DNA of 37,373 bases from Trichosphaerium sp. ATCC 40318 (taxonomy: Eukaryota; Protista; Tubulinea), in the NCBI GenBank assembly GCA_038496445.1, contig JALMLS010000226.1, positions 1-37,373 of the forward strand, given 5' to 3'. Positions 1 through 24,367 of the stretch are shown piece by piece. Under the pieces are notes generated by a model. The model made no database searches. It worked only from the letters and a program-made list of their open reading frames with translations, and was not told the origin of the DNA. How positions within the stretch are numbered: the first letter of the stretch is position 1; the number at the start of each line of letters is the position of its first letter. A program made the position numbers and the translations under genes.

Positions 1-306
1 TTATAAGTATTACCACCAGCAAAGCATTTAATGAAGACAAGTATGAAGCTATTATACATTCTCTTTAAATATTTTTCAGGTGTCCCTAGTGTAAATACGG
101 AGAAACTTATAGTATAGTAGAGCACCTAAAGGTGAATTGGTGTATTTTTAAAATCAAATGGATCTACAAGCCGGTGAGATGTCGAATAAAATCACCAGGT
201 TTTTACACCTTCAGGCATTAGATTCTTTATCTAGCATGGTATGTTAGCAGATATGGTTGCCGTAGTAGGATCTTTAGATTTAGTTTTTGGAGAAATTGAT
301 AGATAA
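1..306 (+). CDS. nad7: NADH dehydrogenase subunit 7, 3' part (duplicate copy; frameshifted cryptogene)
   Basis: Motifs APKGE, RCRIKSPGF and MLADMVAVVGSLDLVFGEIDR* are readable in shifting frames; TAA at 304-306. Inverse of 17492-17795. Confidence 0.93.
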
Positions 307-389
307 GAATTTAAAAAAAATTATTATTGAATTTATATAGTTTAGAAAAAAGAGTAATAAAAAAAAAAAAAAAGTAAAAAAAAAAAAAA

Positions 390-627
390 ATGGAATGACA
401 AATAGTTATTAGCAGCAAAAGTATTAGCAGCAGGAGTATGTACTGTCGGTGTAGGAGGAGCAAGTATAGGTATAGGTATAGTTTTTGGAGGTTTATTAAT
501 AGCAGTAGTATCTAGAAATCCTGAATTAGAAGCTAATTTATTTAGAACAGCACTTTTAGGTTTTGCTTTATCTGAGGCGATGGGTTTATTAGTTTTAATG
601 ATGTCTTTTTTAATTATGTATACATAG
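390..627 (+). CDS. atp9: ATP synthase subunit 9 (duplicate copy)
   Basis: GVGGASIGIGIVFGG..SRNP..LGFALSEAMGL. Has 4 extra nt relative to the intact minus-strand copy, probably sequence errors. Confidence 0.95.
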
Positions 628-647
628 TAAAAAAGACATCATTAAAA
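593..647 (+). terminator. Hairpin with 20-bp arms spanning the atp9 stop codon (possible terminator or processing signal)
   Basis: ttttaatgatgtctttttta ... taaaaaagacatcattaaaa; also present at 17154-17208. Confidence 0.5.
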
Positions 648-852
648 GGATAGTTTATTTTTTATATTAGTAGATATCGCATATATTCTTTGTAGTTCTG
701 TTTTTTTTTTTTTTTTTTTCTATATAAAAAACATCTGTTAGTATAGGGGATTTTATTTTTTTTTTTTATTTAAATCTTTAAATTTTTTTATTAATTTAAA
801 GAGTAAAAAAAAGTAAAAAGTTTTCTATTAGAGTTTTTATTTTTATTATATA

Positions 853-3390
853 TTAAGTATTAAGGGGATTACTAGGTATCAAGAAAAAAGACGCTTTAAT
901 AAAGCGAAAACTTTAATTGAGTAGTACAATGCTATGATTTTTAGGTATCTTTTTAAATTTTTAAAATAGAAAAATAAAAATAGGGAAGTGAAACATCTCA
1001 GTACCTATAAAAAAAACATCGTGTAGAAACGTTAGTAGTGGTGACAAATGCGTTGAGTTCTTTTAAGTAGAGAAAATCGAATAGGCAGTGCCTGCTGCTA
1101 AAGTAAGAATTTTTTGATAACCGATAGTGTAAAAGTACTGTGAAGGAAGTTGAAAAAGATATCGTAGGGATAGTTGAAAAGAAATGAACTTAATACTTTA
1201 AACGGTTGGAGTATAAAAAAAGATATGACAGCGTACTTTTGTATAATGGGCCAATGAGTATATTTTTGAGCAAGCTTAACTTTAAGGGAGCGTAGTGAAA
1301 GCAAAGAGTAAATCTGTAAAAGTCTAAAAAATATGACCGAAACCAAGTGATCTAACAACACCAAGTTTTTGGCTGAAACGGTGTCTGTTGCAAGAGGCTC
1401 GATGAGTGTTGGTTAGGAGTGAAAGCTAATCAAACTTGGTGATAGTGGTTTTCTGCGAAACTTGTTTAAGCAAGCGTATTTTGATTTTGTAGAGTATGGC
1501 ACTAATATTATTCCGGAGTAACTAAGTTATTTACGGGTATAGTGAAACCAAGATGTTATAAAATAAAAAAGTATAGAAAGACTTAGGTGCGAAGATTCTA
1601 GTCGAGAGGGGAAAAAGCCCAGACTATAAGCTAAGCCCTTAAATAATAATCAACTGGAAAGACGTAATAAAAGCGGAGATGGGCTAGAAGCAGCCATTCT
1701 TTAAAGATGCGTAAAAGCTCACGTATTGTTTTTTAAGCGTCATGATGTAAGGGGTCTAAATTATTTGCGAAGCTATAGAATTAATTTGGTAGCAGATGTA
1801 TTGTATGTAAAAAACTGTACGTGAGTTTGGTTAAAATATCAATAGTATAAATGTTGCATGAGTAGCTTTATATGTAAAAACATTATTACGAAAGATTAAG
1901 GTTTCCTTATCTATGTTAAACAGATAAGGGTTAGCGGTCCTTAAGGGAATGTGTTTGTAAGATTCCGACTAAGGTTATATTAGTTATATTCAGAGCAATT
2001 TTATAGAAATTTAATTACAAAAAATAGTTATTGTAATCGTAAAATATCAATTTTTTTGTAACTTACAAGAAAAAAATAAAAAAAAAAACGTACCAATAAC
2101 CGACACAAGGTAATTAGTTGTAGAACAATAAGTAATAGAAGAATAATGCTTAAGGAACTCGCAAAATAACTCAGTAACTTCGGGAGATAGGTACCTAAAA
2201 TATTGTTTTTTAAAATAAATTAAAAGTGAAAATAATTTATTTTTAAGAAGTATTTTGGGGGAAGCGGAACAGAGAAGAGCGACTGTTTACTAAAAACACA
2301 GGACCCTGCTAAATAGTATATGAAGTATAGGTTCGATGCCTGCCCGTGCTGTATCGTGAAAAGGATTTGTTTAAAAGCAATGAATATAAGCAGCAGTAAA
2401 CGCGGCCGTAATCCTTGACGTCTTAAGGTAGCGAAATTCCTAGCTATTAATTGTAGTCCTGCATGAAGCGTAACGACTCTTCTACTGTCTCAAGTGTTAT
2501 TTTAGTGAATTGAAGTTTTCGTGAAGATGCGAAAAAATTGCAGCGGGACGGAAGACCCTGTGCACTTTACTAAAACCTTGTATGGGTTAAGGAAAGCAAA
2601 AAACAGTATAATCAAGAGGTATGATTTAATGGTTTAGGTCATTTAAGGAGCCGTCAGTGGATATTGATTTTTTGTTGGAAAATCTAATCTTAGTAGAAAA
2701 TTAAAAATGCATGGTGGATAGTTTGTCTGGGGCGAAGCTCCCTAAAAGGTAACGGAGTGTACAAAGGCTAATTCAGGACGTTAAAGTTCCGTAGTGCATA
2801 TGGTTTTTATTTTAGCTGACTGTAAGCTTGAAAGGGTTAACAGGGATTTAAAGTCGTCATAGTTTTCCGGATGCGCTTACAGGTAGGGCATCCGCAAACG
2901 GATAAAAGTACGCCAGGGATAACAGCTTATTGCCTTTGAGAGTTCTTATCTGCGAGCGGTTTGGCACCTCGATGTCGGCTCATCTCATCCTGGGGGAGTA
3001 GGCTCCCAAGGGTACGACTGTTCGTCGTTTAAAGAGGTACGTGAGCTGGTTTAGAACGTCGTGAGACAGTTTGCCCCTATCTGCTGTGATAAAAATTAAA
3101 ATTAGAGCCCAATGCAGTACGAGAGAGGCGTTATGGTAATAGGGTGCACCGCTTGTGGTAGCGTTATCGGTTTTACGTTCCGGTTGGCGTTAAAGCTACG
3201 TGCGAAAAAGGAACTGCTGATAACATATAAGTAGAATCTGCTAATTTTAATTTATATTTATGATTCAATATCAGGATTAAATATGGTAGTAAAAAAAATA
3301 TTGTAAAATAATGTTATATATATTTTTTTTACAACTGTAAAAAAAATATATATAAGGTAGTTTTTTTGACTAGATTCCATTAATTAAGTT
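853..3390 (+). rRNA. rnl: Mitochondrial LSU rRNA (duplicate copy)
   Basis: gaagtgaaacatctcagtacc, ccgatagtgtaaaagtactgtgaagga, gactgtttactaaaaacacagg, aaggtagcgaaattcc, ggcacctcgatgtcggctcat, tttagaacgtcgtgagacagtt. Ends approximate. Confidence 0.97.
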
Positions 3391-3452
3391 TTTATAAAAG
3401 TAGAGAAAAAAAGATTTTTAATAAATAAAAAGTATATTATAAATTAAAAATA

Positions 3453-4960
3453 ATGTATTTATTAAGTTTTTATCAATATTTATGTTACATTAAGAGTGGT
3501 CATGTTCAACAAATCATAAAGATATAGGATGCTATATATATGAGCAAGTTTTTTTGGAGGAGTATGGGAACTATATTATCATGATAATACGTATAGAGAA
3601 TTAGGAATGCCTGTCCGTTAATTTTGTTCAAGATAACAAGTTTATAATGTAATCGTAACAGCGCATGTCTATTAATGATTTTTTTTTTCGTTATGCCTTT
3701 ATTAATAGGGGTTTAGGTAATTTTATAGTTCATTAAGTTTAGGGGCCCGGAGATGCATTCCCAAGAGTAAATAATTTAGGTTTCTGATTATTGCGCCTTC
3801 TTTATTATTATTAATGTGATCTTTGTTATAGGAGATGGTGCAGAGCAGGATGAACTTTATATCCATTACTTTCTGTATTAAGGCTAGTCCTGGAATGTCA
3901 TAGATGCTTGTATTTTGAGTTGCATATAGCCGGAATTTCATCAATATCGGTGCAATAAATTTTATGGTAACTATAATGAATATGCGATTATGGATACTTA
4001 TAGAATTGGTTGTTTGCAGTATCATTTATATAACAGCGGTATTATTATTATTGACATTACCTGTTTTAGAGGAGCTTTAGTTATGTTAATAACAGATCGT
4101 ATTTTAATACAACATTTTTTGATCCACAGGAGTGAGATATCCTGTTTTATATCACATATTTTTGATTTTTTTGGACATCAGAGTTTATATATTAATATTA
4201 CCAGCTTTTGTATAACTAGTGTAGTAATTTCTGTTGAACTTATAAAGAGGTTTATGTCATGATTCTATGGTTTATGCATGGTATGTATAGCAGTTTTAGG
4301 ATCTATTGTATGAGTCATCATATGTTTACAGCGGGTTTAGATGATGATACGAGGTATATTTTTATGACAGTAACTATGATAATAGCAATGCCTTCAGGGT
4401 TAAAGTTTTTGGTTGTTATCAACAATAATGTTTGTATAGTAGAAATGAAGAGTTCCGCTATTTTATGCTGCAGATTTGTACTAATGTTTAGTTTTGGAGT
4501 GTAACTGGTATTATTTTAGCAAACGTGTTTTAGATATAGCATTGCATGATACATATTATGTGTTGCTCATTTTCATTATGTTTTATCTTTAGTTCTGTGT
4601 TTGGAATTTTTGCGGGTTTTATCATGGAAGTTCTTTAATGTTTGGAAAAAAATATCCGATTTTATAGGAAGATTACAAATTTTGGGAAATTTTATAGGAG
4701 TAAATATGACTTTTTTGCCAATGCATTTGTTAGGATGGCGGTATGCCCAGAAGGATAGTGATTATCCAGATGCTTATGTTGCTTTAAATTTTTGATGTTC
4801 TGTTGGGCGTTATTTACTATCTGTGTTTATTTTTATTTATTTTATGTTATATTTTATGTCTATAGGAGAGTTTTTATATTTTATATTGTATACTCTTATG
4901 AAGATGCCTATGAGATTTAGTTGAAGATTACTTTTTAACAAAAGAGAGATCTTATTTTTA
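3453..4960 (+). CDS. cox1: Cytochrome c oxidase subunit 1 (duplicate copy; cryptogene with about 40 single-base gaps)
   Basis: STNHKDIG, YNVIVTAH, FPRVNN, GWTLYP, WFFGH(P)EVY, HHMFT, LHDTYY, AHFHYVLS, GMPRR, DYPDAY. 3' end uncertain. Confidence 0.97.
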
Positions 4961-5179
4961 AAGATAATTATAATTTTGGTGAGGATAAAGTTAGAAGTTT
5001 AAATGGTGTATTAGTCTTTAACTGTTTTTATTTTTTCGTGTTAAATCCAAATACAGGAATTTGAGTGTGCAAGTATACCTTTGAATTATGTAAGAAAAGG
5101 ATTGATGGTGTATCTACTCATTATTTGGTGCTTATTAATTTAATGTTTATTTATCTAGAAAGTATAAGAGGTTTTTTTA

Positions 5180-5645
5180 AATGGTTTTGTAGTCATAGAT
5201 AGTTGAAGTTAAAAAAATTTGTATAGTGAAAATAGATAGAAATCTCTACGCTACTCTTCTTTGATTATTTAGTTTTTTAAATTTTATTACGTCTTTTTCT
5301 TTCGTTTTTATGATCTTATAAAGTTTTTATTTTAAATTTTATTTAAAAGGTTTATTTTAGAGTGCGTGTTTTTAAAACATTAAGAAATTACGTAGATAAA
5401 TTTATTTTTTAGGTCATTTTTTATATCTTTTTAGTATGATTAATTTATATAAAGTTTATTATAGAAAATTATAATATGTTTTAGTATATATCTTATATAC
5501 TAAATAATTTTGCGCATATTTTTTGCTTTATAAAAAGTTCATATTTATGGAAAATAGGATTGTGCATCCACAAATTTTAATGAACTAAAAAATAGGAAAA
5601 GTACGTGAAGAGAAGGAAAAAAGGATTACTTTATTATGATTAGTT
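5180..5645 (+). CDS. rpl6: Probable ribosomal protein L6 (duplicate copy; cryptogene)
   Basis: Weak motifs (FKFYLKG..FRVR, FLGH, GKVRE..KG) plus its position just before rps13. Confidence 0.45.
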
Positions 5646-6040
5646 ATGAAAAATTTTATTTTAGTTGGTGTAATATTAAAAGTAAGGAGCAATTTCAGTA
5701 AATTTATCTGCGTTAGGGGGCTTTGTAGACGAAGGGTAGTAGAATATGTTTTAACTTAGGTATATCCCTTGCGAAAATTTGAGCAATTGGAATTTTAGGA
5801 AAGGGATGATTTTAAAGTATTATATTTTTTCTAATTATTATTTAGGTGAAAGGTTATGTGAGAATTAAAAAATATATAGAAGATATACAGATCTTATAGT
5901 AATAGAGGTTAAGTTACTAAGTGGTTACCTGTAAATGTCAACGAAGTAAGACTTGGTTAAAACATCAAATCTTTTAAATTGTGAAGACAAAAGAATTTGG
6001 AACCAAAATTTCAGATGAAATTATAAATGGTAAAATAAAA
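5646..6040 (+). CDS. rps13: Ribosomal protein S13 (duplicate copy; cryptogene)
   Basis: GLPVN(G)QRSKT(N)GKT matches the S13 signature GLPVRGQRTRTNAR. Confidence 0.85.
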
Positions 6041-6117
6041 AATAAAAGAATAACTAAAGACGTTTAAGAAAAAAAAGAAAAGAAAAAAAGAAAAAATAAA
6101 TATATTTAAAGTATATA

Positions 6118-8657
6118 TGCAGCATAAAATAGCGGAATTCTTCATTCTACTATACAAAACATTATTTGTTGATAACAACCAAAACTTAACCCTGAAGGCA
6201 TTGCTATTATCTTAGTTACTGTCATAAAATATACCTCGTATCATCATCTAAACCCGCTGTAAACAATATGATGACTCATACAATTAGATCTAAAACTGCA
6301 TACATACCATGAATAAACCATTAGATTCAGACATAAACTCTTTTATAAGTTCAACAGAAATTACTACCATAGTTTTATAAAAAAGCTGGTAATATTAATA
6401 TATAACTTCTGATGTCCAAAAAAATCAAAAAATCTGTGATATAACATAAAACAGGATCTCACCTCCTGTGGATCAAAAAATGTTGTGATAAAATTTACGA
6501 TCTGTTATTAACATAACTTAAAGCTACCTCTAAAACAGGTATTTGTCAATATAATAATAACCGCTGTTATATAAATGTACTGCTAAACAACCAATTACTA
6601 TAGTATCATAATCGCATTTTCATTATAGTTACCATTAAATTTATTGCACGATATTTTGATGAAATTCCGGCTATAGCAAATCAAAATACAAGCATCTATG
6701 TACATTCCAGGACTAGCCTTAATACAGAAAGTAATGGATATAAATTCATCCTGCTCTGCACCATCTCCTATACAAAGATCACATTAATAATAATAAAGAA
6801 GGCGCAATAATCAGTAACCTAAATTATTTACTCTTGGGAATGCATCTACGGGGCCCATAACTTAATGAAACTATAAAATTACCATAATCCCCTATTAATA
6901 AAGGCATAACGAAAAAAAAATCAATAATAGCATGCGCTGTTACGATTACTTTATAAACTTGTTATCTTGAACCAAAATTAAAGGACAGGCATTCCTATTC
7001 TTATATACAGTATTATTCAGATATATAGTTCCCATACTCCTCCAAAAAAACTTGCTCATAAATATAGCATCCTATATCTTTATGAAATTTGTTGAACATG
7101 ACCACTCTTAATTGTAATCATAAATATTGATAAATACTTATTTAAAATACATTATTTTTAATTTATATTATACTTTTTATTTATTAAATTCTTTTTTTCT
7201 CTACTTTTATTAAAAACTTAAATAATGGAATTAGTCAAAAAAACTTCCTTTTATATATTTTTTTACAGTTGTAAAAAAATATATATAACATTATTTTACA
7301 ATATTTTTTTACTACCATATTTAATCCTGATATTTGAATCATAAATATAAATTAAAATTAGCAGATCCTTTTTTTAACTTATATGTTATCGCAGTTCCTT
7401 TTTCGCACGTAGCTTTAACGCCAACCGGAACGTAAAACCGATAACGCTACCACAAGCGGTGCACCCTATTACCATAAGCCTCTATTCGTACTGAATTGGG
7501 CTCTATTTTTAATTTTTATCACAGAAGATAGGGGCAAACTGTCTCACGACGTTCTAAACCAGCTCACGTACCTCTTTAAACGACGAACAGTCGTACCCTT
7601 GGGAGCATACTCCCCCAGGATGAGATGAGGCGACATCGAGGTGCCAAACCGCTCGCAGATAAGAACTTTCAAAGGCAATAAGCTGTTATCCCTGGCGTAC
7701 TTTTTATCCGTTTGCGGATGCCCTACTGTAAGCCATCCGGAAAAACTTGCGACTTTTAATAATGTTAACCCTTTCTAGCTTACAGTCAGCTAAAAATAAA
7801 AACCATATGCACTACGGAAACTTTAAAGTACTGAATTACCTTTGTACACTCGTGATTACCTTTTAGGGAGCTTTCGCCCCAGACAAAACTATCCACCATG
7901 CATTTTTAATTTTACTTAAGATTAGATTTTTCCAACAAAAAATCAATATTCACTGACGGCTCCTTAAATGACCTAAACCATTAAATCATACCTCTTGATT
8001 ATACGGTTTTTTGCTTTCCTTAACCATACAAGGTTTAGTAAAGTGCACAGGGTCTTCCGTACCCGCTGCAATTTTTTTCGCATCTTCACGAAAACTTCAT
8101 TTCACTAAAATAACACTTGAGACAAGTAGAAGAGTCGTTACGCATTCATGCAGGACTACAATTAATAGCTAGGATTTTCGCTAACCTTAAGACGTCAAGG
8201 ATTACGGCCGCGTTTACTGCTGCTTATATTTCATTGCTTTTAAACTAATCCTTTTCACGATACAGCACGGGCAGGCATCGAACCTATAATTAATTTATAT
8301 TTAGCAGGGTCCTGTGTTTTAGTAAACTGTCGCTATTCTCTGTTCCGCTTCCCCCAAATACTTCTTAAAAATAAATTATTTTACACATTTTATATTTATT
8401 TTAAAAAACAATATTTTAGGTACAATCTACCGAAGTTACTGAGTTATTTTGCGAGTTCCTTAAGCATTATTCTTCTTTACTTATTGTTCTACAACTAATT
8501 ACCTGTGTCGGTTATTGGTACGTTTTTTTTTTTTTTATTTTTTATCTTGTAAGTTACAAAAAATTGATTATTTTTAGGATTAAATAACTAATTTTTTGTA
8601 ATTTAATTTTAATAAAATTGGCTTGAATATAACTAATATAACATTAGTCGGAATCTT
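6118..8657 (-). repeat. Block B: error-rich inverted copy of about 1958-4473 (cox1 5' part and rnl 3' part)
   Basis: Reverse complement of cox1/rnl with scattered extra errors; the junction lies on the shared 5-mer tgcag at 6118-6122. Confidence 0.95.
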
Positions 8658-10850
8658 GAAACCAAGATGTTATAAAAGGAAAAAGTATAGAAAGACTTAG
8701 GTGTTTAAGTCGAGAGGAAAAAGCCCAGACTATAGCTAAGCCCTTAATGTTTTTCAACTGGAAAGACGTAATAAAAGCGGAGATGGGCTAGAAGCAGCCA
8801 TTCTTTAAAGATGCGTAAACTCACGTATTGTTTTTTAAGCGTCATGATGTAAGGGCTCTAAATTATTTGCGAAGCTATAGAATTAATTTGGTAGCAGATG
8901 TATTGTATGTAAAAAACTGTACGTGAGTTTGGTTAAAATATCAATAGTATAAATGTTGCATGAGTAGCTTATATGTAAAAACATTATTACGAAAGATTAA
9001 GGTTTCCTTATCTATGTTAAACAGATAAGGGTTAGCGGTCCTTAAGGGAATGTGTTTGTAAGATTCCGACTAAGGTTATATTAGTTATATTCAGAGCAAT
9101 TTTATAGAAATTTAATTACAAAAAATAGTTATTGTAATCGTAAAATATCAATTTTTTTGTAACTTACAAGAAAAAAATAAAAAAAAAAAACGTACCAATA
9201 ACCGACACAGGTAATTAGTTGTAGAACAATAAGTAATAGAAGAATAATGCTTAAGGAACTCGCAAAATAACTCAGTAACTTCGGGAGATAGGTACCTAAA
9301 ATATTGTTTTTTAAAATAAATTAAAAGTGAAAATAATTTATTTTTTAAGAAGTATTTTGGGGGAAGCGGAACAGAGAAGAGCGACTGTTTACTAAAACAC
9401 AGGACCCTGCTAAATAGTATATGAAGTATAGGTTCGATGCCTGCCCGTGCTGTATCGTGAAAAGGATTTGTTTAAAAGCAATGAATATAAGCAGCAGTAA
9501 ACGCGGCCGTAATCCTTGACGTCTTAAGGTAGCGAAATTCCTAGCTATTAATTGTAGTCCTGCATGAAGCGTAACGACTCTTCTACTGTCTCAAGTGTTA
9601 TTTTAGTGAATTGAAGTTTTCGTGAAGATGCGAAAAAATTGCAGCGGGACGGAAGACCCTGTGCACTTTACTAAAACCTTGTATGGGTTAAGGAAAGCAA
9701 AAACACAGTATAATCAAGAGGTATGATTTAATGGTTTAGGTCATTTAAGGAGCCGTCAGTGGATATTGATTTTTTGTTGGAAAAATCTAATCTTAGTAGA
9801 AATTAAAAATGCATGGTGGATAGTTTGTCTGGGGCGAAGCTCCCTAAAAGGTAACGGAGTGTACAAAGGCTAATTCAGGACGTTAAAGTTCCGTAGTGCA
9901 TATGGTTTTTATTTTAGCTGACTGTAAGCTTGAAAGGGTTAACAGGGATTTAAAGTCGTCATAGTTTTCCGGATGCGCTTACAGGTAGGGCATCCGCAAA
10001 CGGATAAAAGTACGCCAGGGATAACAGCTTATTGCCTTTGAGAGTTCTTATCTGCGAGCGGTTTGGCACCTCGATGTCGGCTCATCTCATCCTGGGGGAG
10101 TAGGCTCCCAAGGGTACGACTGTTCGTCGTTTAAAGAGGTACGTGAGCTGGTTTAGAACGTCGTGAGACAGTTTGCCCCTATCTGCTGTGATAAAAATTA
10201 AAATTAGAGCCCAATGCAGTACGAGAGAGGCGTTATGGTAATAGGGTGCACCGCTTGTGGTAGCGTTATCGGTTTTACGTTCCGGTTGGCGTTAAAGCTA
10301 CGTTTTAAAAAAAATCAAAGTTTTTTAAAAAGTCAAGTAAAAAATACTAATTTTAATTATATTTATGAAAATTTCAGGATTAAATATGGAAGTATAAAAA
10401 AAGTCTCCCCAAATAATGTTATATATATTTTTTCAAGAACAATTAAAAAAAAAGAATATAAAGTTTCTATAAAAAGATTCTCTTTCTTTTTCAAGCATGC
10501 TTATAATTTTATCTTTTCAAATTTCATTTTTACTATCTATTATAGTATATCAATCCATTAAAACAAGTTCATGTATTTTAATATCTTTTCATAAATTTTT
10601 AATAGTTACATTAAGAGTCTTCATGTTCAAAAAATCAAAAAGCATCATAGGATGCTATCATATATGAGCAAGTTTTTTTGGGGAGTATGGGAACTTTATT
10701 ATCATGATAATACGTATAGAATTAGGAAATCTGTCCGTTAATTTGGTTAAATATTAACAAGTTTATAATGATAATCAAAATAGCCATGTTTATTAATTAT
10801 TTTTTTTTTTCGTTATGCCTTTATTAATTTTTTTTTAGGTAATTTTTTAA
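8657..10850 (+). repeat. Block C: direct copy of about 1543-3730 (rnl and start of cox1), degrading after about 10300
   Basis: Starts tgaaaccaagatgttataaa as at 1543; near-identical up to about 10300, then a mosaic. Confidence 0.93.
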
Positions 10851-11619
10851 TTCTACTTTAAATTTACATTTTTTTCACTTATATCATAATTTTCAATTAT
10901 AAATTCTACTCAGCTTAAATTCTCAAACATAACTGACAAATTACTTTCTTATTATTATTCCTTCGTTTTCTAAAGTATAAGTTACAAAATTAAAAAAATC
11001 AGCATCTTGACTTTGCTCAATTTCACCTATATGATCTACTATTTTTTTTTTTTAAACTCTTTATCATTTTGCATAAATAGAATAAAATTATTTATTTCTT
11101 CTAAATTAAGCATAGAATTAATAAAAAAATGATAATAAATAGAACACATAACTAATCATAAGATCATAGAAGCAAACGCACTATAGCTTCAAGTTAAACT
11201 ATATCCTTGGCTAGCTAGTTGCGTATATAGATCTGCTACCACTGTTGGATCTATAGGTACTAAATTGTCTAACTTATCCACTATTTCTTCTCTGCTTTTT
11301 TCTTCATTAAAGAACGTTAAGGTTAAGCCTCCCCCTCGAAGCTTAACCATTCAAAAAAATGAACCCTCCCTTTCGCTAATAAAGCATAATTATTTATCAA
11401 ATCTTCTTTAAAAAAAGGATTATTATAAAATACTAATTCTTTACTAAATAAAAAATAAAATTTAAAAACACTTATAAAACACCCCGCCATGTAATGTATT
11501 GAATTCAATACAAACCAAAGAACCAAAAATGATAGGAGCTCACTTTTTACATATTTCTTTAATATTACAAAATTAAACATGATAATTTTTCTTCTTTTTT
11601 TATATTTTAAACTTAACAA
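10850..11619 (-). CDS. Unassigned ORF with hydrophobic segments, truncated at the fold-back junction
   Basis: Long open stretches (MFNFVILKK...FEGE; EEKSREEIVDKLDNLVPIDPTVVADLY; SAFASMILWLVMCSIYYHFF) with only a few frame breaks. Confidence 0.55.
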
Positions 11620-11749
11620 TACCTATATAAATTACTCTATTACACTACACAAAATACACTGCATATATACTTTAAATATATTTATTTTTCTTCTTTTTCT
11701 TTTTCTTTTTTTTTCTTAAACGTCTTTTAGTTATTCTTTTATTTTTTAT

Positions 11750-12144
11750 TTTACCATTTATAATTTCATCTGAAATTTTGGTTCCAAATTCTTTTGTCTT
11801 CACAATTTAAAAGATTTTGATGTTTTACCATAGTCTTACTTCGTTGACATTTACAGGTAAACCACTTAGTAACTTTAACCTCTATTACTATAAGATCTGT
11901 ATATCTTCTTATATATTTTTTAATTCTCACATAACCTTTCACCTAAATAATAATTAGAAAAAAGATAATACTTTAAAATCATCCCTTTCCTAAAATTCCA
12001 ATTGCTCAAATTTTCGCAAGGCGATATACCTAAGTTAAAACATATTCTACTACCCTTCGTCTACAAAGCCCCCTAACGCAGATAAATTTACTGAAATTGC
12101 TCCTTACTTTTTAATATTACACCAACTAAAATAAAATTTTTCAT
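11750..12144 (-). CDS. rps13: Ribosomal protein S13 (cryptogene)
   Basis: GLPVN(G)QRSKT(N)GKTSK at about 11815-11870; ATG at 12144. Confidence 0.85.
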
Positions 12145-12614
12145 AACTTAATCATAATAAAGTAATCCTTTTTTCCTTCTCTTCACGTACTTTTCCTATT
12201 TTTAGTTCATTAAAATTTGTGGATGCACAATCCTATTTTCCTATATATATGAACTTTTTATAAAGCAAAAAATATGCGCAAAATTATTTAGTATATAAGA
12301 TATATACTAAAACATATTATAATTTTCTATAATAAACTTTTATATAAATTAAATCATACTAAAAAGATATAAAAAATGACCTAAAAATAAATTTATCTAC
12401 GTAATTTCTTATATGTTTAAAAACACGCACTCTAAAACTAAACCTTTTAAATAAAATTTAAAATAAAAACTTTATAAGATCATAAAAACGAAAGAAAAAG
12501 ACGCTAATAAAATTTAAAAAAACTAAATAATCAAAGAAGAGTAGCGTAGAGATTTTCTATCTATTTTCACTATACAAATTTTTTTAACTTCAACTATCTA
12601 TGACTACAAAACCA
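12145..12614 (-). CDS. rpl6: Probable ribosomal protein L6 (cryptogene)
   Basis: Weak motifs plus rpl6-rps13 synteny. Confidence 0.45.
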
Positions 12615-12839
12615 TTTAAAAAAACCTCTTATACTTTCTAGATAAATATAACATTAAATTAATATTAGCACCAAATAATGAGTAGATACACCATCAATCC
12701 TTTTCTTACATAATTCAAAGGTATACTTGCACACTCAAAATTCCTGTATTTGGATTTAACACGAAAAAATAAAAACAGTTAAAGACTAATACACCATTTA
12801 AACTTCTAACTTTATCCTCACCAAAATTATAATTATCTT

Positions 12840-14346
12840 TAAAAATAAGATCTCTCTTTTGTTAAAAAGTAATCTTCAACTAAATCTCATAGGCATCTTC
12901 ATAAGAGTATACAATATAAAATATAAAAACTCTCCTATAGACATAAAATATAACATAAAATAAATAAAAATAAACACAGATAGTAAATAACGCCCAACAG
13001 AACATCAAAAATTTAAAGCAACATAAGCATCTGGATAATCACTATCCTTCTGGGCATACCCGCCATCCTAACAAATGCATTGGCAAAAAAGTCATATTTA
13101 CTCCTATAAAATTTCCCAAAATTGTAATCTTCCTATAAAATCGGATATTTTTTTCCAAACATTAAAGAACTTCAATGATAAAACCCGCAAAAATTCCAAA
13201 CACAGAACTAAAGATAAAACATAATGAAAATGAGCAACACATAATATGTATCATGCAATGCTATATCTAAAACACGTTTGCTAAAATAATACCAGTTACA
13301 CTCCAAAACTAAACATTAGTACAAATCTGCAGCATAAAATAGCGGAACTCTTCATTCTACTATACAAACATTATTGTTGATAACAACCAAAAACTTTAAC
13401 CCTGAAGGCATTGCTATTATCATAGTTACTGTCATAAAATATACCTCGTATCATCATCTAAACCCGCTGTAAACATATGATGACTCATACAATAGATCCT
13501 AAAACTGCTATACATACCATGCATAAACCATAGAATCATGACATAAACCTCTTTATAAGTTCAACAGAAATTACTACACTAGTTATACAAAAGCTGGTAA
13601 TATTAATATATAAACTTCTGATGTCCAAAAAATCAAAAAATATGTGATATAAAACAGGATCTCCACCTCCTGTGGATCAAAAAATGTTGTATTAAAATAC
13701 GATCTGTTATTAACATAACTAAAGCTCCTCTAAAACAGGTAATGTCAATAATAATAATACCGCTGTTATATAAATGATACTGCAAACAACCAATTCTATA
13801 AGTATCCATAATCGCATATTCATTATAGTTACCATAAAATTTATTGCACCGATATTGATGAAATTCCGGCTATATGCAACTCAAAATACAAGCATCTATG
13901 ACATTCCAGGACTAGCCTTAATACAGAAAGTAATGGATATAAAGTTCATCCTGCTCTGCACCATCTCCTATAACAAAGATCACATTAATAATAATAAAGA
14001 AGGCGCAATAATCAGAAACCTAAATTATTTACTCTTGGGAATGCATCTCCGGGGCCCCTAAACTTAATGAACTATAAAATTACCTAAACCCCTATTAATA
14101 AAGGCATAACGAAAAAAAAAATCATTAATAGACATGCGCTGTTACGATTACATTATAAACTTGTTATCTTGAACCAAAATTAACGGACAGGCATTCCTAA
14201 TTCTATACGTATTATCATGATAATATAGTTCCCATACTCCTCCAAAAAAACTTGCTCATATATATAGCATCCTATATCTTTATGATTTGTTGAACATGAC
14301 CACTCTTAATGTAACATAAATATTGATAAAAACTTAATAAATACAT
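12840..14346 (-). CDS. cox1: Cytochrome c oxidase subunit 1 (cryptogene)
   Basis: Canonical cox1 motifs in shifting frames; ATG at 14346; 3' end approximate. Confidence 0.97.
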
Positions 14347-14409
14347 TATTTTTAATTTATAATATACTTTTTATTTATTAAAAATCTTTTTTTTCTCTAC
14401 TTTTATTAA

Positions 14410-16945
14410 AAACTTAATTAATGGAATCTAGTCAAAAAACTACCTTATATATATTTTTTTTACAGTTGTAAAAAAAATATATATAACATTATTTTACAAT
14501 ATTTTTTTTACTACCATATTTAATCCTGATATTGAATCATAAATATAAATTAAAATTAGCAGATTCTACTTATATGTTATCAGCAGTTCCTTTTTCGCAC
14601 GTAGCTTTAACGCCAACCGGAACGTAAAACCGATAACGCTACCACAAGCGGTGCACCCTATTACCATAACGCCTCTCTCGTACTGCATTGGGCTCTAATT
14701 TTAATTTTTATCACAGCAGATAGGGGCAAACTGTCTCACGACGTTCTAAACCAGCTCACGTACCTCTTTAAACGACGAACAGTCGTACCCTTGGGAGCCT
14801 ACTCCCCCAGGATGAGATGAGCCGACATCGAGGTGCCAAACCGCTCGCAGATAAGAACTCTCAAAGGCAATAAGCTGTTATCCCTGGCGTACTTTTATCC
14901 GTTTGCGGATGCCCTACCTGTAAGCGCATCCGGAAAACTATGACGACTTTAAATCCCTGTTAACCCTTTCAAGCTTACAGTCAGCTAAAATAAAAACCAT
15001 ATGCACTACGGAACTTTAACGTCCTGAATTAGCCTTTGTACACTCCGTTACCTTTTAGGGAGCTTCGCCCCAGACAAACTATCCACCATGCATTTTTAAT
15101 TTCTACTAAGATTAGATTTTTCCAACAAAAAATCAATATCCACTGACGGCTCCTTAAATGACCTAAACCATTAAATCATACCTCTTGATTATACTGTGTT
15201 TTTGCTTTCCTTAACCCATACAAGGTTTTAGTAAAGTGCACAGGGTCTTCCGTCCCGCTGCAATTTTTTCGCATCTTCACGAAAACTTCAATTCACTAAA
15301 ATAACACTTGAGACAGTAGAAGAGTCGTTACGCTTCATGCAGGACTACAATTAATAGCTAGGAATTTCGCTACCTTAAGACGTCAAGGATTACGGCCGCG
15401 TTTACTGCTGCTTATATTCATTGCTTTTAAACAAATCCTTTTCACGATACAGCACGGGCAGGCATCGAACCTATACTTCATATACTATTTAGCAGGGTCC
15501 TGTGTTTTAGTAAACAGTCGCTCTTCTCTGTTCCGCTTCCCCCAAAATACTTCTTAAAAATAAATTATTTTCACTTTTAATTTATTTTAAAAAACAATAT
15601 TTTAGGTACCTATCTCCCGAAGTTACTGAGTTATTTTGCGAGTTCCTTAAGCATTATTCTTCTATTACTTATTGTTCTACAACTAATTACCTGTGTCGGT
15701 TATTGGTACGTTTTTTTTTTTTATTTTTTTCTTGTAAGTTACAAAAAAATTGATATTTTACGATTACAATAACTATTTTTTGTAATTAAATTTCTATAAA
15801 ATTGCTCTGAATATAACTAATATAACCTTAGTCGGAATCTTACAAACACATTCCCTTAAGGACCGCTAACCCTTATCTGTTTAACATAGATAAGGAAACC
15901 TTAATCTTTCGTAATAATGTTTTTACATATAAAGCTACTCATGCAACATTTATACTATTGATATTTTAACCAAACTCACGTACAGTTTTTTACATACAAT
16001 ACATCTGCTACCAAATTAATTCTATAGCTTCGCAAATAATTTAGAGCCCCTTACATCATGACGCTTAAAAAACAATACGTGAGCTTTTACGCATCTTTAA
16101 AGAATGGCTGCTTCTAGCCCATCTCCGCTTTTATTACGTCTTTCCAGTTGATTATTATTTAAGGGCTTAGCTTATAGTCTGGGCTTTTTCCCTCTCGACT
16201 AGAATCTTCGCACCTAAGTCTTTCTATACTTTTTTATTTTTATAACATCTTGGTTTCACTATACCCGTAAATAACTTAGTTACTCCGGAATAATATTAGT
16301 GCCATACTCTACAAAATCAAAATACGCTTGCTTAAACAAGTTTCGCAGAAAACCAGCTATCACCAAGTTTGATTAGCTTTCACTCCTAACCAACACTCAT
16401 CGAGCCTCTTGCAACAGACACCGGTTCAGCCAAAAACTTGGTGTTGTTAGATCACTTGGTTTCGGTCATATTTTTTAGACTTTACAGATTTACTCTTTGC
16501 TTTCACTACGCCTCCCTTAAAGTTAAGCTTGCTCAAAAATATACTCATTGGCCCATTATACAAAAGTACGCTGTCATATCTTTTTTATACTCCAACCGTT
16601 AAAGTATTAAGTTCATTTCTTTTCAACTATCCCTACGATATCTTTTTCAACTTCCTTCACAGTACTTTTACACTATCGGTTATCAAAAAATTCTTACTTT
16701 AGCAGCAGGCACTGCCTATTCGATTTTCTCTACTTAAAAGAACTCAACGCATTTGTCACCACTACTAACGTTTCTACACGATGTTTTTTTTATAGGTACT
16801 GAGATGTTTCACTTCCCTATTTTTATTTTTCTATTTTAAAAATTTAAAAAGATACCTAAAAATCATAGCATTGTACTACTCAATTAAAGTTTTCGCTTTA
16901 TTAAAGCGTCTTTTTTCTTGATACCTAGTAATCCCCTTAATACTT
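14410..16945 (-). rRNA. rnl: Mitochondrial LSU rRNA
   Basis: Universal LSU motifs of domains I-VI; ends approximate. Confidence 0.97.
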
Positions 16946-17173
16946 AATATATAATAAAAGTAAAAACTCTAATAGAAAACTTTTACTTTTTTTTACTCTT
17001 TAAATTAATAAAAAAATTTAAAGATTTAAATAAAAAAAAAAAATAAAATCCCCTATACTAACAGATGTTTTTTATATAGAAAAAAAAAAAAAAAAAAAAC
17101 AGAACTACAAAGAATATATGCGATATTCTACTAATATAAAAAATAAACTATCCTTTTAATGATGTCTTTTTTA

Positions 17174-17407
17174 CTATGTATACATAATTAAAAAAGACAT
17201 CATTAAAACTAATAAACCCATCGCCTCAGATAAAGCAAAACCTAAAAGTGCTGTTCTAAATAAATTAGCTTCTAATTCAGGATTTCTAGATACTGCTATT
17301 AATAAACCTCCAAAAACTATACCTATACCTATACTTGCTCCTCCTACACCGACAGTACATACTCCTGCTGCTAATACTTTTGCTGCTAATACTATTTGTC
17401 ATTCCAT
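17174..17407 (-). CDS. atp9: ATP synthase subunit 9, intact 77 aa
   Basis: 234-nt uninterrupted frame with TGA=W: MEWQIVLAAKVLAAGVCTVGVGGASIGIGIVFGGLLIAVSRNPELEANLFRTALLGFALSEAMGLLVLMMSFLIMYT*. Confidence 0.97.
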
Positions 17408-17491
17408 TTTTTTTTTTTTTTTACTTTTTTTTTTTTTTTATTACTCTTTTTTCTAAACTATATAAATTTCAATAATAATTTTTTTAAATTC

Positions 17492-18726
17492 TTATCTATC
17501 AATTTCTCCAAAAACTAAATCTAAAGATCCTACTACGGCAACCATATCTGCTAACATACCATGCTAGATAAAGAATCTAATGCCTGAAGGTGTAAAAACC
17601 TGGTGATTTTATTCGACATCTCACCGGCTTGTAGATCCATTTGATTTTAAAAATACACCAATTCACCTTTAGGTGCTCTACTATACTATAAGTTTCTCCG
17701 TATTTACACTAGGACACCTGAAAAATATTTAAAGAAATGTATTATAGCTTCATACTTGTCTTCATTAAATGCTTTGCTGGTGGTAATACTTATAATTATT
17801 TACTTTAACACTTTGTAATTTAAATTTTACATATATATTAAACACTGCTTAATTATCTTACGCTTTCTTTCATTTCCAAAATACGCAACATAAAACGATC
17901 ATACAATCACCATAAACTCCACAGGTATTTTAAACTTAAGTAAGTTATACACTCGTAAGGTTGCATGATTCTTAAATCTCAACAAAAACCAACGGACTTA
18001 AAATAACTCCAGAAAACCATAATCAACTGCCATCCTAAAAGGTGCTATAGCTATATTTACTAAACGCTGCTAAATATTCTATTATCTCTTATTAAATCTT
18101 CTAATCAAAAATTCTATATATAAATGATTCAAAAAAGATCCTATATCAGATATTAGTGTTGGTGTATATCGTTCACTAAACGCCAGGTCTAAAATATGCT
18201 GCATGAAACCTCGCACTGATACTCTTTCATAAAATTCCAACACCTTTTCCCTTCTTCAAACGCTCAGAGAAAAGGTGTTAATGCACAAGATCTAACGCAT
18301 GTGTTGTTAGAGCAATAAATGATTTAAAATACGTGTTAATCCATAAAAATAACGCGTATACTTTTGCACGTAACGGATACTCACTCCTAATAAATTTCAA
18401 CTGCTTTAACATAAACTTGTTCTTGACCATCATAGATACATATCTAACCTATCAAAATAAGGCAAACTTTGCAAGTAGGTTTATACTCTATTAACTTTTC
18501 AGTACCTCTATGCAATAACCTATATGAGTATCTATTTCAATAACAGTTTCCCATATAATTTTACTACTAGTCTTAATACACCATGAGCTGCTGATGCTGC
18601 GGACCAAAATTTAGTGTTAAAATAGCTACTTTAAAAAAAACACTTGCAAAAACTTGTTTTTTAACGACCCCACATTACTTTAATTTTTCTTGAGTTACGT
18701 AAATAACGTCAAATAAACGTATTCAT
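17492..18726 (-). CDS. nad7: NADH dehydrogenase subunit 7 (cryptogene)
   Basis: LTLNFGPQH(P)AAHGVLRLV, LHRGTEKL, LPYFDRLDYVSM, DLVFGEIDR*. Start approximate. Confidence 0.95.
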
Positions 18727-19146: not shown

Positions 19147-19530
19147 CTATCAACTTGATTAGATATTCCTGCAAATAACTAAACGATGCAAAATTTTTAA
19201 ATTCATGACGTGACATTTAGCAAATCTTACTACCGATCTGCTCGACCTGTTATATGACACCAATTTTAACTAAAGTAAAACCTCTAAGTTTCGCATATGA
19301 GCTATTATATTTAAAAATAAAGCCGCTTTAATCTATATTTTATTGTTTTTTGACTATTTAGAAATGTATATAATATTTTTTATTTCATTTATTTTTAATA
19401 ATTTCTTTTTAAATATTCTAAATGAAGCTTTAGCTTATATGACTATTATATTTATTTTTAGCTATAAACATTATTTTTTTTATTTTAAAAACTTTTCTAG
19501 ATTATGATCAAATAATTGCTTATTACTCAT
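19147..19530 (-). CDS. rps14: Ribosomal protein S14 (cryptogene)
   Basis: CHITGRA, MSRHEFK, C-terminal SSW*. Confidence 0.85.
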
Positions 19531-19534
19531 ATAT

Positions 19535-20070
19535 AACTTAAAAACAAATAGTATAAAAAAAAAATTCTTTTGAAAAAATTAATCAAAATAAAGAGGCGCT
19601 TCCCAACCAGAAAACCTAATAATTGTGTTCATCGAATAAATATTTAACATCGTAAACTTTAAGATTAAACGAAACCTTTTGTCAACTTTATTTTTTTTAT
19701 AGATCATTTATACTTCATCAATTTATTACTTTTTCCTTGAAAAAGAATGCATAAAGACTTCCGCTATAGGATCCTTTAAAAATATACTATTTTTGTTTGA
19801 TAAGACTATCTCCTGTATAACTATTTAATAAAAAACCAACCTATATAAAGCAGCTGGTTTATTGCTTCACCAAAATCAAAGTTAAACCGCCACCGACGAA
19901 TGTATATATCATGATTATAAAATTCATTAAAAAAAACTCTGTAAAGTGTTTAAAATATAATGTTGCAAAAAACATTGATCTTTTTTTTTATTTAAATTTC
20001 TTTAATTTGCTTATCTATAAGTAAACAGCAAACACAAAACTAAATCTCTTTACTTTAAATTATTTTTCAT
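19535..20070 (-). CDS. rpl5: Probable ribosomal protein L5 (cryptogene)
   Basis: Mainly synteny (between rpl14 and rps14) and size; ATG abuts the rpl14 stop; no strong motif seen. Confidence 0.5.
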
Positions 20071-20433
20071 TTATACACACCATTATTAACAGAACCTACG
20101 TAAACATAAACCATCCTATTTCTTGAGGCATTGACCTTCTAAACGACGTCCTATAGAGATCATTTTTTATTGACAAAACTATAGAATTTTCTTTAAATCT
20201 TAATCTTGTATGTGTAACTTACGCCTACACAACCTTTAGTACGCACAATAAACCACGCATTAATTTTCTTTAGGTATTAAAATTTGTTGTGTTATAACAC
20301 CTTTGTAACACAATTATTAATTTATCTCCTATTTGCCCATACTTTTTTTTCCCGCACCTACTATTCTTAAGCACGCGCTTCTATTGCGGTAGTATATCCA
20401 TAACACCTACATTACTACCATCTGTATTCCCAT
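20071..20433 (-). CDS. rpl14: Ribosomal protein L14 (cryptogene)
   Basis: MGIQ..GVMD..AIEA.CLRIVG..GQIGDKLII; LIVRTK; FKENSIVL; GRRLEG. Confidence 0.85.
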
Positions 20434-20439
20434 TTTTTT

Positions 20440-21045
20440 ATTTAATTAACTTAAAAAAATTAAATTTAATCTTCCTGAAATCCTTCTTTTATTTTACTAA
20501 AAACAATTAATGTTTTCATATTTTAGGTACATTATTTAATCCTGTTTCACACACTTGAAAAAATATGCTACACATCAAATTGGCGATTTTCAACGCTAAA
20601 TTTACCTTTACCTTTTCCATTCTTACTAATTTAGACCTTTTAGTAAATGTAAATAACATATTAAATGCGTCGTAATCTTCCTAAACGTCGCTTTCTATTC
20701 CTACGACGAATTCTTCTTACATATTTAAAAATTTATTATTATAAGGTGTTTTTCTTTTTTCTCAAAAAAGAAAAAAGAAAAACGTCGTTTTCTCGACTTG
20801 ATAAACGACGTTTATTTTTTAATTTTTAAATTTTTGCTTTATTATAAATGTATTTTATTTAATTAGATGGACTTATCAACCTAAAGTTAAACTTTTAATA
20901 GCAACACTTGCGATCCTACATTCAATGTCACTTTTCTACCTTTGCTTTATATTTTATTTTATATTTAAATCTTTTCTAAATGCATATATTTTTCTTGGAT
21001 GTATACCATATTTGCACTTAAACACACTGGTTGTAAACAACCATC
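20440..21045 (-). CDS. rpl16: Ribosomal protein L16 with a basic insertion (cryptogene)
   Basis: HPRK..FRK, AIKSLTLG, FTKRSKLVRM(G)KGKGK. Confidence 0.85.
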
Positions 21046-21049
21046 CTAT

Positions 21050-21950
21050 AAGGTTTATTCATCAAATTTTAACACCCATTATACTAAATTTTAAAGGCAA
21101 ATAATTAAACCATAATCTATATAGCCTGTAACAGTACTTAATGTAATTTACCTTCAAAAAACATAAATTCACTTTTTTTTGACGTCTTTTAAAACGACCT
21201 TTAAATTAAATTTAAAACCTTCTATAATCCTCAATTAAACATTAACCTAAAACATTCCCTTTCATAGTACTCAACATTTCTTATAACTATATTTTTGATC
21301 AAAACGCTTTACCATAAACACGACATAAATCTTGCACTTACGCTTTGTTATCCAAAAAATCAACTTTAAACTTACTTTTTTGGATAACAAAGCACGAGAA
21401 AAAAACTACAAAATTTAACCATAAAAAAATTTCACCAATAAAATCATATCCCCATACACTCGCCTTGCTTCTATACTTCACATCATTAATTGTAAACTCT
21501 ATAAATAGTAACTAGCTTCGCCTTTTCCCTAATGCTTTTTTACTGCTGCTTTAATTAAATTCTTATAAAAATACGTAATTTAAAGTACCTGATCATTTTA
21601 CTTCTTTTAAAAATAACGTCAGCAAAAAGATCTTAAATAACGCATACAAGCTTTATATCTCATAAAAATCGTACACGATTTTTAACCGCCGAAGACATCA
21701 TGTCATATAAGACCATGATAACAATAACAACACCTATTAATTTATTATCACTTGATTATAAACAATATTTATATTATCTATAATCAACCTCTACCACGCT
21801 GCCAATCTCACTTAATATTGTTTTTACAAAGTTTCGAGCCGCAAACAACTATAAAACAAATTGCATAATGTATATCTTAACGTAATAAACATCATCTCAA
21901 GTAATCAAAAATTGGATCTAAAACACAGAGGATTACTAAACGACCTCTTC
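21050..21950 (-). CDS. rps3: Ribosomal protein S3 (cryptogene)
   Basis: N-terminal GRLV(N)PLCFR; C-terminal FKGRF, YIDYG, MGVKIW. Confidence 0.85.
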
Positions 21951-22228
21951 TTTTTACTTTCCCTTACTGGATTTTTTATCTTCTTTTTATGTATTCTAGA
22001 ACCTCACTTTTTGTAAAGAAGAAATCACGATATTTAAACCATACATATTTGGTTTAACAAATATATAATAAACTTTTGTCCTGTATAACACTATAATAAT
22101 TACCAATAAGCACTTAAAAATAATAATATTTCTATAAAAACATAATTAAATTTTTCGCTTTATGTATACTTTTTTTTAAAATCTTAAGATCTTTAACTTA
22201 AAAAACGGAATTTTTTTGGGGATCTCAT
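21951..22228 (-). CDS. rps19: Ribosomal protein S19 (cryptogene)
   Basis: MRSPKK.PF, YTGQKF, FVKPNMYG, DFFFTK. Confidence 0.8.
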
Positions 22229-22261
22229 TATTTTTTTTTTTCTTCTTTATTTCTTCTTTCT

Positions 22262-22846: not shown

Positions 22847-22875
22847 ATTAATTCTTTTTATACTTTTTTTTATAT

Positions 22876-23217: not shown

Positions 23218-23276
23218 TTTATTTATTATTGCATCTTTTATATTTAAAATTACTAGAAAACAAAAAATATAAAATT

Positions 23277-23393
23277 TAAAGAACTTAATTTATTTTTAAT
23301 TTCGCTTCTTCCCTTGAAACTATAAAAAATTATAAACAAATAACTATCCTTTTTAGATATTCATTTATAATACAAGTAACATTCTCTTTTTTT
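23277..23393. repeat. 117-bp intergenic direct repeat, copy 1 (upstream of nad3)
   Basis: Matches 30351-30467 with 3 substitutions. Confidence 0.92.
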
Positions 23394-24361: not shown

Positions 24362-24367
24362 TTTTAA

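What the first reader, a model, noticed from the sequence alone, without database searches (positions are those of the whole stretch)
3520..4760. Inferred editing sites are evenly spaced
Approximate cox1 sites at 3529, 3563, 3580, 3613, 3636, 3667, 3711, 3731, 3755, 3794, 3828, 3843, 3880, 3900, 3920, 3946 and onward give gaps of mostly 15-45 nt and no tight clusters. All consensus defects are single-base losses. Random error or pseudogene decay would give clustered, mixed indels and nonsense codons. A minimum spacing suggests a polymerase-footprint or RNA-DNA hybrid constraint (inference; Physarum sites also have a minimum spacing).
Basis: partly seen in the sequence, partly recalled or inferred. 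Interest (0 to 1): 0.7.

Follow-up and report, generated by a model that had tools for sequence, protein, structure and literature searches.

The report
Evenly spaced base-doubling RNA editing
This mitochondrial cox1 gene of an unidentified, probably marine protist lacks one base about every 30 bases (never closer than about 15), and matching RNA carries those bases as doubled copies of a neighbour; the even spacing likely comes from a polymerase-stutter editing system that cannot act twice within a short stretch and has likely filled the gene almost to capacity.

Summary
The window is an error-prone assembly with repeated cox1 copies. The quoted copy (3453 onward) has 14 indel differences from a clean copy at 14346-12660 (-). 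The clean copy needs 55 single-base insertions over 561 codons (about 2 more near the end) and no deletions. RNA-run contigs match the predicted edited length in 9 of 11 pieces compared, and all 9 sites read directly double the adjacent base (5 G, 2 A, 2 C). Gaps are 15-49 nt, mean 29.2, CV 0.295. Poisson is rejected (0 of 20,000 simulations), and so is a fixed minimum plus random gaps (p about 0.002). A post-hoc model with a soft 16-26 nt exclusion zone filled near saturation fits. nad7 shows a similar pattern (penalty-dependent), the LSU rRNA has similar gaps, and atp9 is unedited. No motif, helical phase or hybrid-stability signal was found. Density is about 2.5 times that of BB2 cox1, and the floor exceeds Physarum's 9 nt. 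No DNA run was laid, and the lineage is unknown.

The parts
3453..5140 (+). cox1 cryptogene, copy A (the copy in the finding; carries private assembly errors). Inferred insertion sites in these coordinates: 3496, 3527, 3562, 3580, 3613, 3637, 3667, 3708, 3731, 3755, 3793, 3825, 3843, 3875, 3899, 3920, 3948, 3986, 4008, 4023, 4069, 4101, 4124, 4154, 4179, 4210, 4233, 4256, 4277, 4314, 4353, 4397, 4415, 4434, 4473, 4499, 4525, 4561, 4592, 4613, 4656, 4684, 4733, 4756, 4805, 4825, 4844, 4876, 4915, 4939, 4960, 4994, 5014, 5037, 5074, plus about 2 near 5105-5120. The stop codon is not fixed.
   Evidence: RNA contigs
12660..14346 (-). cox1 cryptogene, copy B (clean copy used for all spacing statistics): 561 codons, TGA=Trp, 55 single-base insertions in codons 15-559, no deletions; restored protein 499/561 identical to P0001 with no stop
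6115..7302 (-). partial, noisier third copy of cox1 (covers A 3300-4475); lacks the base at all 34 sites it covers
10560..10853 (+). partial, noisy fourth copy of the cox1 5' end; lacks the base at all 8 sites it covers
17495..18640 (-). nad7 cryptogene: 36 inferred doubling insertions, gaps 15-53 nt, mean 30.2, CV 0.33 at insertion penalty 8 (39 sites, CV 0.40 at penalty 6; 55 sites, CV 0.70 at penalty 4); not checked against RNA
17174..17407 (-). atp9, intact 77-codon ORF with 12 GG runs and no insertion needed (internal control; shows there is no obligatory maximum gap)
14504..16959 (-). LSU rRNA gene (copy at 841-3296, +); its 3' part shows single-base gaps against the Rfam consensus about every 25-47 nt, several next to an identical base; editing inferred only

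Best explanation
This is a protist mitochondrial cox1 gene whose RNA gains about 57 single bases that are absent from the DNA, each one a doubling of the neighbouring base (read directly at 9 sites, inferred at the rest), likely added while the RNA is being made by a polymerase that reads one template base twice. The sites are evenly spaced likely because the editing complex cannot edit again within about 15 nt and only reluctantly up to about 25 nt, and because sites (DNA deletions rescued by editing) have likely accumulated in evolution until almost no free room is left, which removes long gaps as well. Shown: the insertions, their doubling character at the sites read, and the spacing statistics. 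Inferred: co-transcriptional stutter (by analogy with BB2), the footprint cause of the exclusion, and saturation.
For: RNA contigs (X8 and X14 recorded as RNA-seq; X6 and X11 guessed as RNA) carry the bases. 9 of 9 sites read directly double a neighbour (tables 3, 4, 7); the chance is about 1e-3. One of them (codon 424) is a site where the unconstrained alignment preferred a non-doubling C. In those pieces the remaining mismatches are explained by copy-A errors. 49 of 55 sites have a doubling among the best insertions, and 21 of 26 sites with a unique best insertion are doublings (p=0.001). All four window copies lack the base at every site covered (55/55, 55/55, 34/34, 8/8). 43 of 55 sites are 1-to-2 runs while 17 runs of 5-10 T or A are correct, and atp9 is intact. 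Spacing: CV 0.295, 0.26-0.34 over placement uncertainty. An independent guide profile without P0001 puts its 45 sites within 0-7 nt of the same places. Random filling with a hard 20-22 nt exclusion jams at 54-63 sites against 55 observed. A soft 16-26 or 16-32 nt exclusion reproduces CV, minimum, maximum and the number of gaps under 20. The same exclusion-plus-saturation logic is published for Physarum with 9 nt (PMC10048350, section 6).
Against: No DNA run was laid, so the DNA state rests on the window's copies and on word shares (X1 0.78 against 0.80 expected for the unedited form and 0.146 for the edited form). Runs guessed as DNA (X3, X4, X9, X10) have shares of 0.11-0.16, which fits the filled-in form or partial coverage; this is unresolved. 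Only 9 of 55 sites were read letter by letter (67 table rows were not shown). 6 of 55 sites score 1-4 points better with a non-doubling base (one of them overturned by RNA). The exclusion model was fitted after the fact (6 soft or hard settings, 10), with weights from the same data. It does not reproduce the lag-1 gap correlation of -0.225 (P 0.01-0.04), which is itself weak (permutation p=0.06) and absent in nad7 (-0.05). Contigs say nothing about timing, so co-transcriptional action is untested. No polymerase or editing factor is in the window. What marks a site is unexplained: no motif (best flank p=0.009 uncorrected).
Confidence: 0.62

Rival explanations
1. Editing is real, but sites are specified by a templating molecule (the mature RNA annealed to DNA, or guide RNAs or proteins). 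The floor is the anchor length needed between bulges, not a polymerase footprint.
For: No local motif exists, so the information must come from elsewhere. A mature-RNA/DNA duplex model is proposed for Physarum (PMC10048350, section 6). An AT-rich anchor of 15-20 nt is plausible (inference).
Against: Short gaps are not GC-richer (Spearman 0.18, p=0.19), and segment hybrid energy is no more uniform than in permuted controls (P=0.81; weakest segment weaker than usual). No edited-form 6-8 nt-flank word occurs elsewhere in the window (only part of the genome). A templated system need not be limited to doublings.
Confidence: 0.17
2. An active ruler or timer in the elongation complex (a refractory period, then a rising probability of stutter) sets the spacing directly, rather than evolutionary filling.
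For: The chance of the next site rises with distance. Sums of three or four successive gaps vary less than permuted ones (p=0.02-0.03). Mean gap is the same in cox1 and nad7 (29.2 and 30.2, KS p=0.52).
Against: atp9 (234 nt) and ORFs of 345-675 codons need no insertion. There is no period, helical phase or lattice (p=0.18-0.70). The serial correlation is absent in nad7.
Confidence: 0.13
3. The missing bases are systematic long-read assembly errors, or this is a dead copy of a gene that is intact elsewhere in the DNA; the RNA is simply the true sequence.
For: The window is an error-prone assembly with inverted duplications. No DNA run was laid. Four runs guessed as DNA have word shares that fit the filled-in form.
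Against: The same bases are missing in all copies although their private errors differ. Losses are mostly GG to G while long homopolymers and atp9 are right. Errors or decay would not keep 15 nt apart, and the real errors in copy A do cluster. Decay would add substitutions, and none remain against the RNA contigs beyond copy-A errors.
Confidence: 0.05
4. No editing: ribosomes frameshift at each site.
For: All defects are one-base losses in the clean copy.
Against: The RNA contigs physically contain the bases, and the rRNA gene shows similar gaps.
Confidence: 0.01

Closest known systems
Amoeba BB2 (Heterolobosea) mitochondrial mononucleotide insertion editing (PMC5421314; abstract, sections 14 and 17, part of 10, passages, supplement 1 read)
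   Same: Single-base insertions next to an identical base; G commonest; several bases used; no motif; no deletions or substitutions seen; rRNA apparently affected.
   Different: cox1 has 55-57 sites in about 1690 nt here against 27 in 2016 nt. nad7 has about 36 against 14. atp9 has 0 against 2. G share is about 58% (32/55, third-position identities uncertain) against 84%. The BB2 main text has no occurrence of 'spacing', 'distance' or 'evenly'. Gene lengths differ, so this is not BB2; relatedness is untested.
Myxomycete (Physarum, Didymium) co-transcriptional insertion editing, MICOTREM (PMC10048350 section 6 and passages; PMC3152335 passages and section 29; PMC3285571 abstract and passages)
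   Same: Dense insertions (about every 25 nt there, 29 here), a minimum spacing, a published model of random accumulation to saturation (Krishnan et al., seen only as summarised in PMC10048350), some genes unedited, no sufficient motif.
   Different: Physarum inserts mainly C (1255 of 1333 events), 875 of them not next to a C, plus dinucleotides and C-to-U changes; its floor is 9 nt and the distribution is called essentially random above it. Here insertions are doublings, mainly G, the floor is about 15 nt, and gaps are narrower than floor-plus-random.
Arcellinid (Hyalospheniidae) COI single-base deletions (PMC4807447, passages)
   Same: Mitochondrial cox1 DNA lacking single bases, read as insertional editing.
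   Different: Seven positions in a 669-bp alignment, inferred as C or T, no RNA evidence in the passage seen; far sparser and not G-dominated.
Paramyxovirus P-gene polymerase stuttering (as described in PMC5421314, section 17)
   Same: G added next to G by template re-reading.
   Different: There it occurs at a homopolymer slippery tract; here 43 of 55 sites are lone bases with no slippery motif.

Membership tests
BB2-type duplicating insertion editing | Only single-nucleotide insertions in RNA relative to mtDNA, no deletions or substitutions | tested here: met
BB2-type duplicating insertion editing | Inserted base always identical to an adjacent encoded base | tested here: met
   9 of 9 read from RNA; all 55 compatible, 49 optimal; 46 not read directly
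BB2-type duplicating insertion editing | G predominant | tested here: met
   32 of 55 inferred, 17 of 22 doubling-only sites, 5 of 9 read; lower than BB2's 84%
BB2-type duplicating insertion editing | mRNAs, rRNAs and tRNAs all edited | tested here: inconclusive
   nad7 and LSU inferred from DNA only; no tRNA found
BB2-type duplicating insertion editing | Near-complete editing in reads (co-transcriptional) | not testable with these tools
   Only contigs were available
BB2-type duplicating insertion editing | Homology: organism belongs to the BB2 lineage of Heterolobosea | tested here: inconclusive
   No named eukaryotic relative found; gene sizes and site counts differ from BB2
Myxomycete MICOTREM | Mostly C insertions, most not next to an encoded C | tested here: not met
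   C among best insertions at 26 of 55 sites; RNA shows G and A doublings
Myxomycete MICOTREM | Minimum spacing of 9 nt, otherwise essentially random | tested here: not met
   Floor 15; a 9-nt floor gives CV about 0.7, 0 of 20,000 reach the observed value
Myxomycete MICOTREM | About 4% of mRNA bases non-templated, some genes unedited | tested here: met
   55 of 1683 = 3.3%; atp9 unedited
Kinetoplastid U insertion/deletion editing | Only U inserted or deleted, guide-RNA directed | tested here: not met
   Inserted bases read from RNA are G, A and C

The most novel reading that the evidence does not exclude
An independent origin of polymerase-stutter RNA editing in a widespread marine protist, at more than twice the density of BB2. 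Site positions obey a measurable 15-25 nt refractory distance and edited genes are packed to jamming, so that spacing, not local sequence, carries part of the site-selection rule and reads out the footprint of the editing polymerase.
Probability: 0.35. Interest if true: 0.85.

Novelty: new variant of a known kind. Interest (0 to 1): 0.68.

Why it matters
How co-transcriptional insertion editing picks its sites is a long-open question in Physarum and BB2 (PMC10048350, PMC5421314: no motif, no guides). Here the inserted base appears fixed by its neighbour, so only position needs explaining. Position shows a sharp quantitative rule: no gap under about 15 nt, depleted long gaps, and all-or-none editing by gene. 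That gives a number to test against polymerase footprints and a system to compare across relatives (P0001 is 89% identical). RNA runs from two studies hold the same cox1 sequence, so material is within reach. It also warns that such genomes look like broken assemblies and are missed by gene callers.

Tried and rejected
No whole genome is held. No DNA run was laid on the locus, which leaves DNA confirmation indirect. Two exact-pattern scans of metagenome contigs (cox1, atp9) found 0 loci. Lineage placement failed: the best homologues after P0001 are about 49-63% identical and carry no organism names in the ten clusters looked up; PDB and Atlas hits are generic COX1. Small word shares of unlaid runs were not used as habitat evidence; 'marine' rests only on run labels and is weak. 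The 4564 row was dropped: it comes from a short, very deep contig with 5 other letters in 53 nt, taken as another organism. Rejected models: Poisson; random choice among homopolymer runs; hard minimum of 9-19 nt plus random gaps (P 0-0.02); helical 10-11 nt phase; fixed lattice; hybrid-stability floor; flanking motif; edited-form templates inside the window. Ribosomal-protein genes aligned to Sinorhizobium guides were too divergent to place sites (5 of 14 guides scored above 30 or so at best; gaps unreliable) and were left out of all counts. One search crashed part-way and was completed. Earlier scan notes: nothing for this genome or sequence; one unrelated trypanosomatid note. Literature: 10 searches showed no report of dense G-doubling editing other than BB2 and none on its spacing. 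Passages of PMC12328842, PMC12079164, PMC8589990, PMC6492006, PMC12566451 and PMC10389689 added nothing on this system. Subscription journals, where many protist mitogenomes appear (recalled), are not covered, so prior description of this organism cannot be excluded.

Full report
What the window is. It is part of an AT-rich mitochondrial genome read with TGA as Trp (10 of 10 TGA codons align to Trp in P0001). It holds LSU rRNA copies, cox1, nad7, atp9 and further frameshifted genes. It is an error-prone assembly with inverted duplications: 1-6122 recurs inverted at 17795-11659 at 98.7% identity, and partial copies recur at about 92%. cox1 therefore occurs as copy A (the finding), copy B (14346-12660, -) and two partial copies. 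No genome is held.

Cleaning the observation. Copies A and B differ by 14 indel events and 2 mismatches in the CDS. Where RNA-contig letters are shown, they side with B: extra T at 3361, missing A at 3393 and 3405, extra two bases at 3595, missing G at 3625, substitution at 4626. Copy B aligned to its closest intact protein P0001 (581 aa; 499/561 identical) is collinear. It needs 55 one-base insertions in codons 15-559, about two more near the C-terminus, and no deletion.

It is RNA editing. Contigs from X8 and X14 (RNA-seq on record, one sample) and X6 and X11 (guessed RNA) contain the missing bases. Of the 12 indel rows shown (67 were not shown), 6 are edits, 5 are copy-A errors and 1 is from a foreign contig. 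Three more edits can be read from the mismatch and loose-end tables. All 9 double a neighbour (5 G, 2 A, 2 C); the chance is about 1e-3. I compared 11 contig pieces with the predicted edited sequence. 9 match in length exactly (e.g. 899 nt, 31 gaps, 3 mismatches). One is 1 nt short, with a site 4 nt from its end. One runs beyond my model and implies about 3 further insertions in 5140-5242. This excludes hidden in-frame clusters within the matched pieces. The DNA side is indirect. All copies lack the base at every site covered. atp9 with 12 GG runs and 17 long T/A runs in cox1 are intact. Run X1 holds 0.78 of the words against 0.80 expected for the unedited form and 0.146 for the edited form.

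Spacing. Genomic gaps are 15-49 nt, mean 29.2, SD 8.6, CV 0.295, n=54. With placement uncertainty the CV is 0.26-0.34 and the minimum 11-17. A profile of 116 other COX1 proteins finds 45 sites, each within 7 nt of a P0001-based site. Uniform placement gives CV 0.97 and placement among homopolymer runs 0.94; 0 of 20,000 reach the observed value. A hard floor with random gaps gives CV 0.69 (9 nt) to 0.37 (19 nt), P from 0 to 0.02. The shifted-exponential test gives p=0.0016. The chance of the next site per 5-nt bin rises 0, 0.11, 0.31, 0.21, 0.42, 0.60, 0.50, 1.0 from 10 to 49 nt. nad7, placed with a roughly 55%-identical bacterial profile, gives 36 sites, gaps 15-53, CV 0.33 at penalty 8. It gives 39 sites (CV 0.40) and 55 sites (CV 0.70) at penalties 6 and 4, so it is supporting, not independent proof. 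The LSU rRNA shows single-base gaps against the Rfam consensus about every 25-47 nt in its conserved 3' part.

What sets the spacing. No flanking motif was found; the best signal is T rather than A after edited GG (17/24 against 16/41, p=0.009 uncorrected), which partly reflects Gly codon use. There is no helical phase, period or lattice, no GC or hybrid-energy effect, and no edited-form template in the window. Random filling with exclusion does fit. A hard 20-22 nt exclusion jams at 54-63 sites against 55 observed, but cannot give the four mature-RNA gaps of 16-19 nt. A soft exclusion from 16 to 26 or 32 nt reproduces CV, minimum, maximum and short-gap count. The fit is post hoc. It does not reproduce the lag-1 correlation of -0.225, which is weak (p=0.06) and absent in nad7. 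Unedited atp9 and long open ORFs show that no maximum gap is enforced.

Mechanism. Shown: one-base doublings in RNA and their regular spacing. Inferred: the polymerase re-reads one template base (the model proposed for BB2, PMC5421314 section 17). After a stutter the complex would be unable to stutter again until the extra base has cleared it. A 15-25 nt zone is longer than an 8-9 bp hybrid and closer to hybrid plus exit path or a whole footprint (dimensions recalled, from no call). DNA deletions that such editing rescues would be fixed neutrally until room runs out, as modelled for Physarum (PMC10048350 section 6, citing Krishnan et al., which I did not read). What marks each site is unknown.

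Comparison. It works like BB2 editing (doubling, G-dominant, no motif), but cox1 has 55-57 sites in about 1690 nt against 27 in 2016 nt, nad7 about 36 against 14, and atp9 0 against 2. The BB2 main text does not discuss spacing. It shares density, a floor and saturation logic with Physarum but fails its defining C-insertion and 9-nt features. Arcellinid COI has a few inferred C/T sites. The lineage could not be placed, so homology with BB2 versus an independent origin is open. Ten literature searches found no description of this dense, spaced form; subscription journals and bioRxiv supplements were not covered.

Verdict. Observation partly confirmed (spacing real and stronger; 'only losses' true only after removing assembly errors). 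Interpretation partly supported. New variant of a known kind; interest 0.68.

Noticed in passing
window 17174-17407 (-): atp9 needs no insertion although its neighbours nad7 and the LSU rRNA appear densely edited; editing looks all-or-none by gene (BB2 atp9 has 2 sites). The copy at 390 (+) has an assembly frameshift.
   Followed up: partly
window 24556-28505, 30492-31529, 34687-37263 (-): Long open, mostly lysine-rich ORFs (116-675 codons) with no Pfam match among 7 scanned; apparently unedited or nearly so.
   Followed up: partly
window 24367-24956, 26200-26520, 28036-28815, 29647-29936, 30784-30878, 34401-34715: Many near-perfect inverted repeats spanning 50-220 bp, several at the ends of the long ORFs; the miRNA-family Rfam hits there are below gathering scores.
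   Followed up: no
window 1-17795: Nested inverted duplications of the LSU-cox1 region at 87-99% identity, as expected from amplification chimeras or a long-read mis-assembly (inference); copy quality differs strongly.
   Followed up: yes
window 19150-23300 and 31600-34300 (-): Frameshifted ribosomal-protein genes (rps19, rpl16, rpl14, rps14 by weak alignment) and nad3-, nad6-, nad4- and nad2-like genes (read by eye from three-frame translations), at roughly similar frameshift density.
   Followed up: partly
window 5140-5242: RNA contig X11 record 8 implies about 3 more inserted bases past the P0001-equivalent end of cox1; the stop codon and the downstream gene (5200-6122) are unresolved.
   Followed up: no
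P0001: An intact 581-aa COX1 on a 1788-nt contig, 89% identical: a related species, either its edited mRNA or an unedited gene; useful for mapping site gain and loss.
   Followed up: partly
runs X3, X4, X9, X10: Guessed as DNA yet with word shares (0.11-0.16) equal to that expected of the edited form; could be mislabelled RNA, partial coverage, or a filled-in DNA form.
   Followed up: no
whole window: ARAGORN finds no tRNA gene in 37 kb; tRNAs may lie elsewhere or be hidden by editing as in BB2.
   Followed up: no
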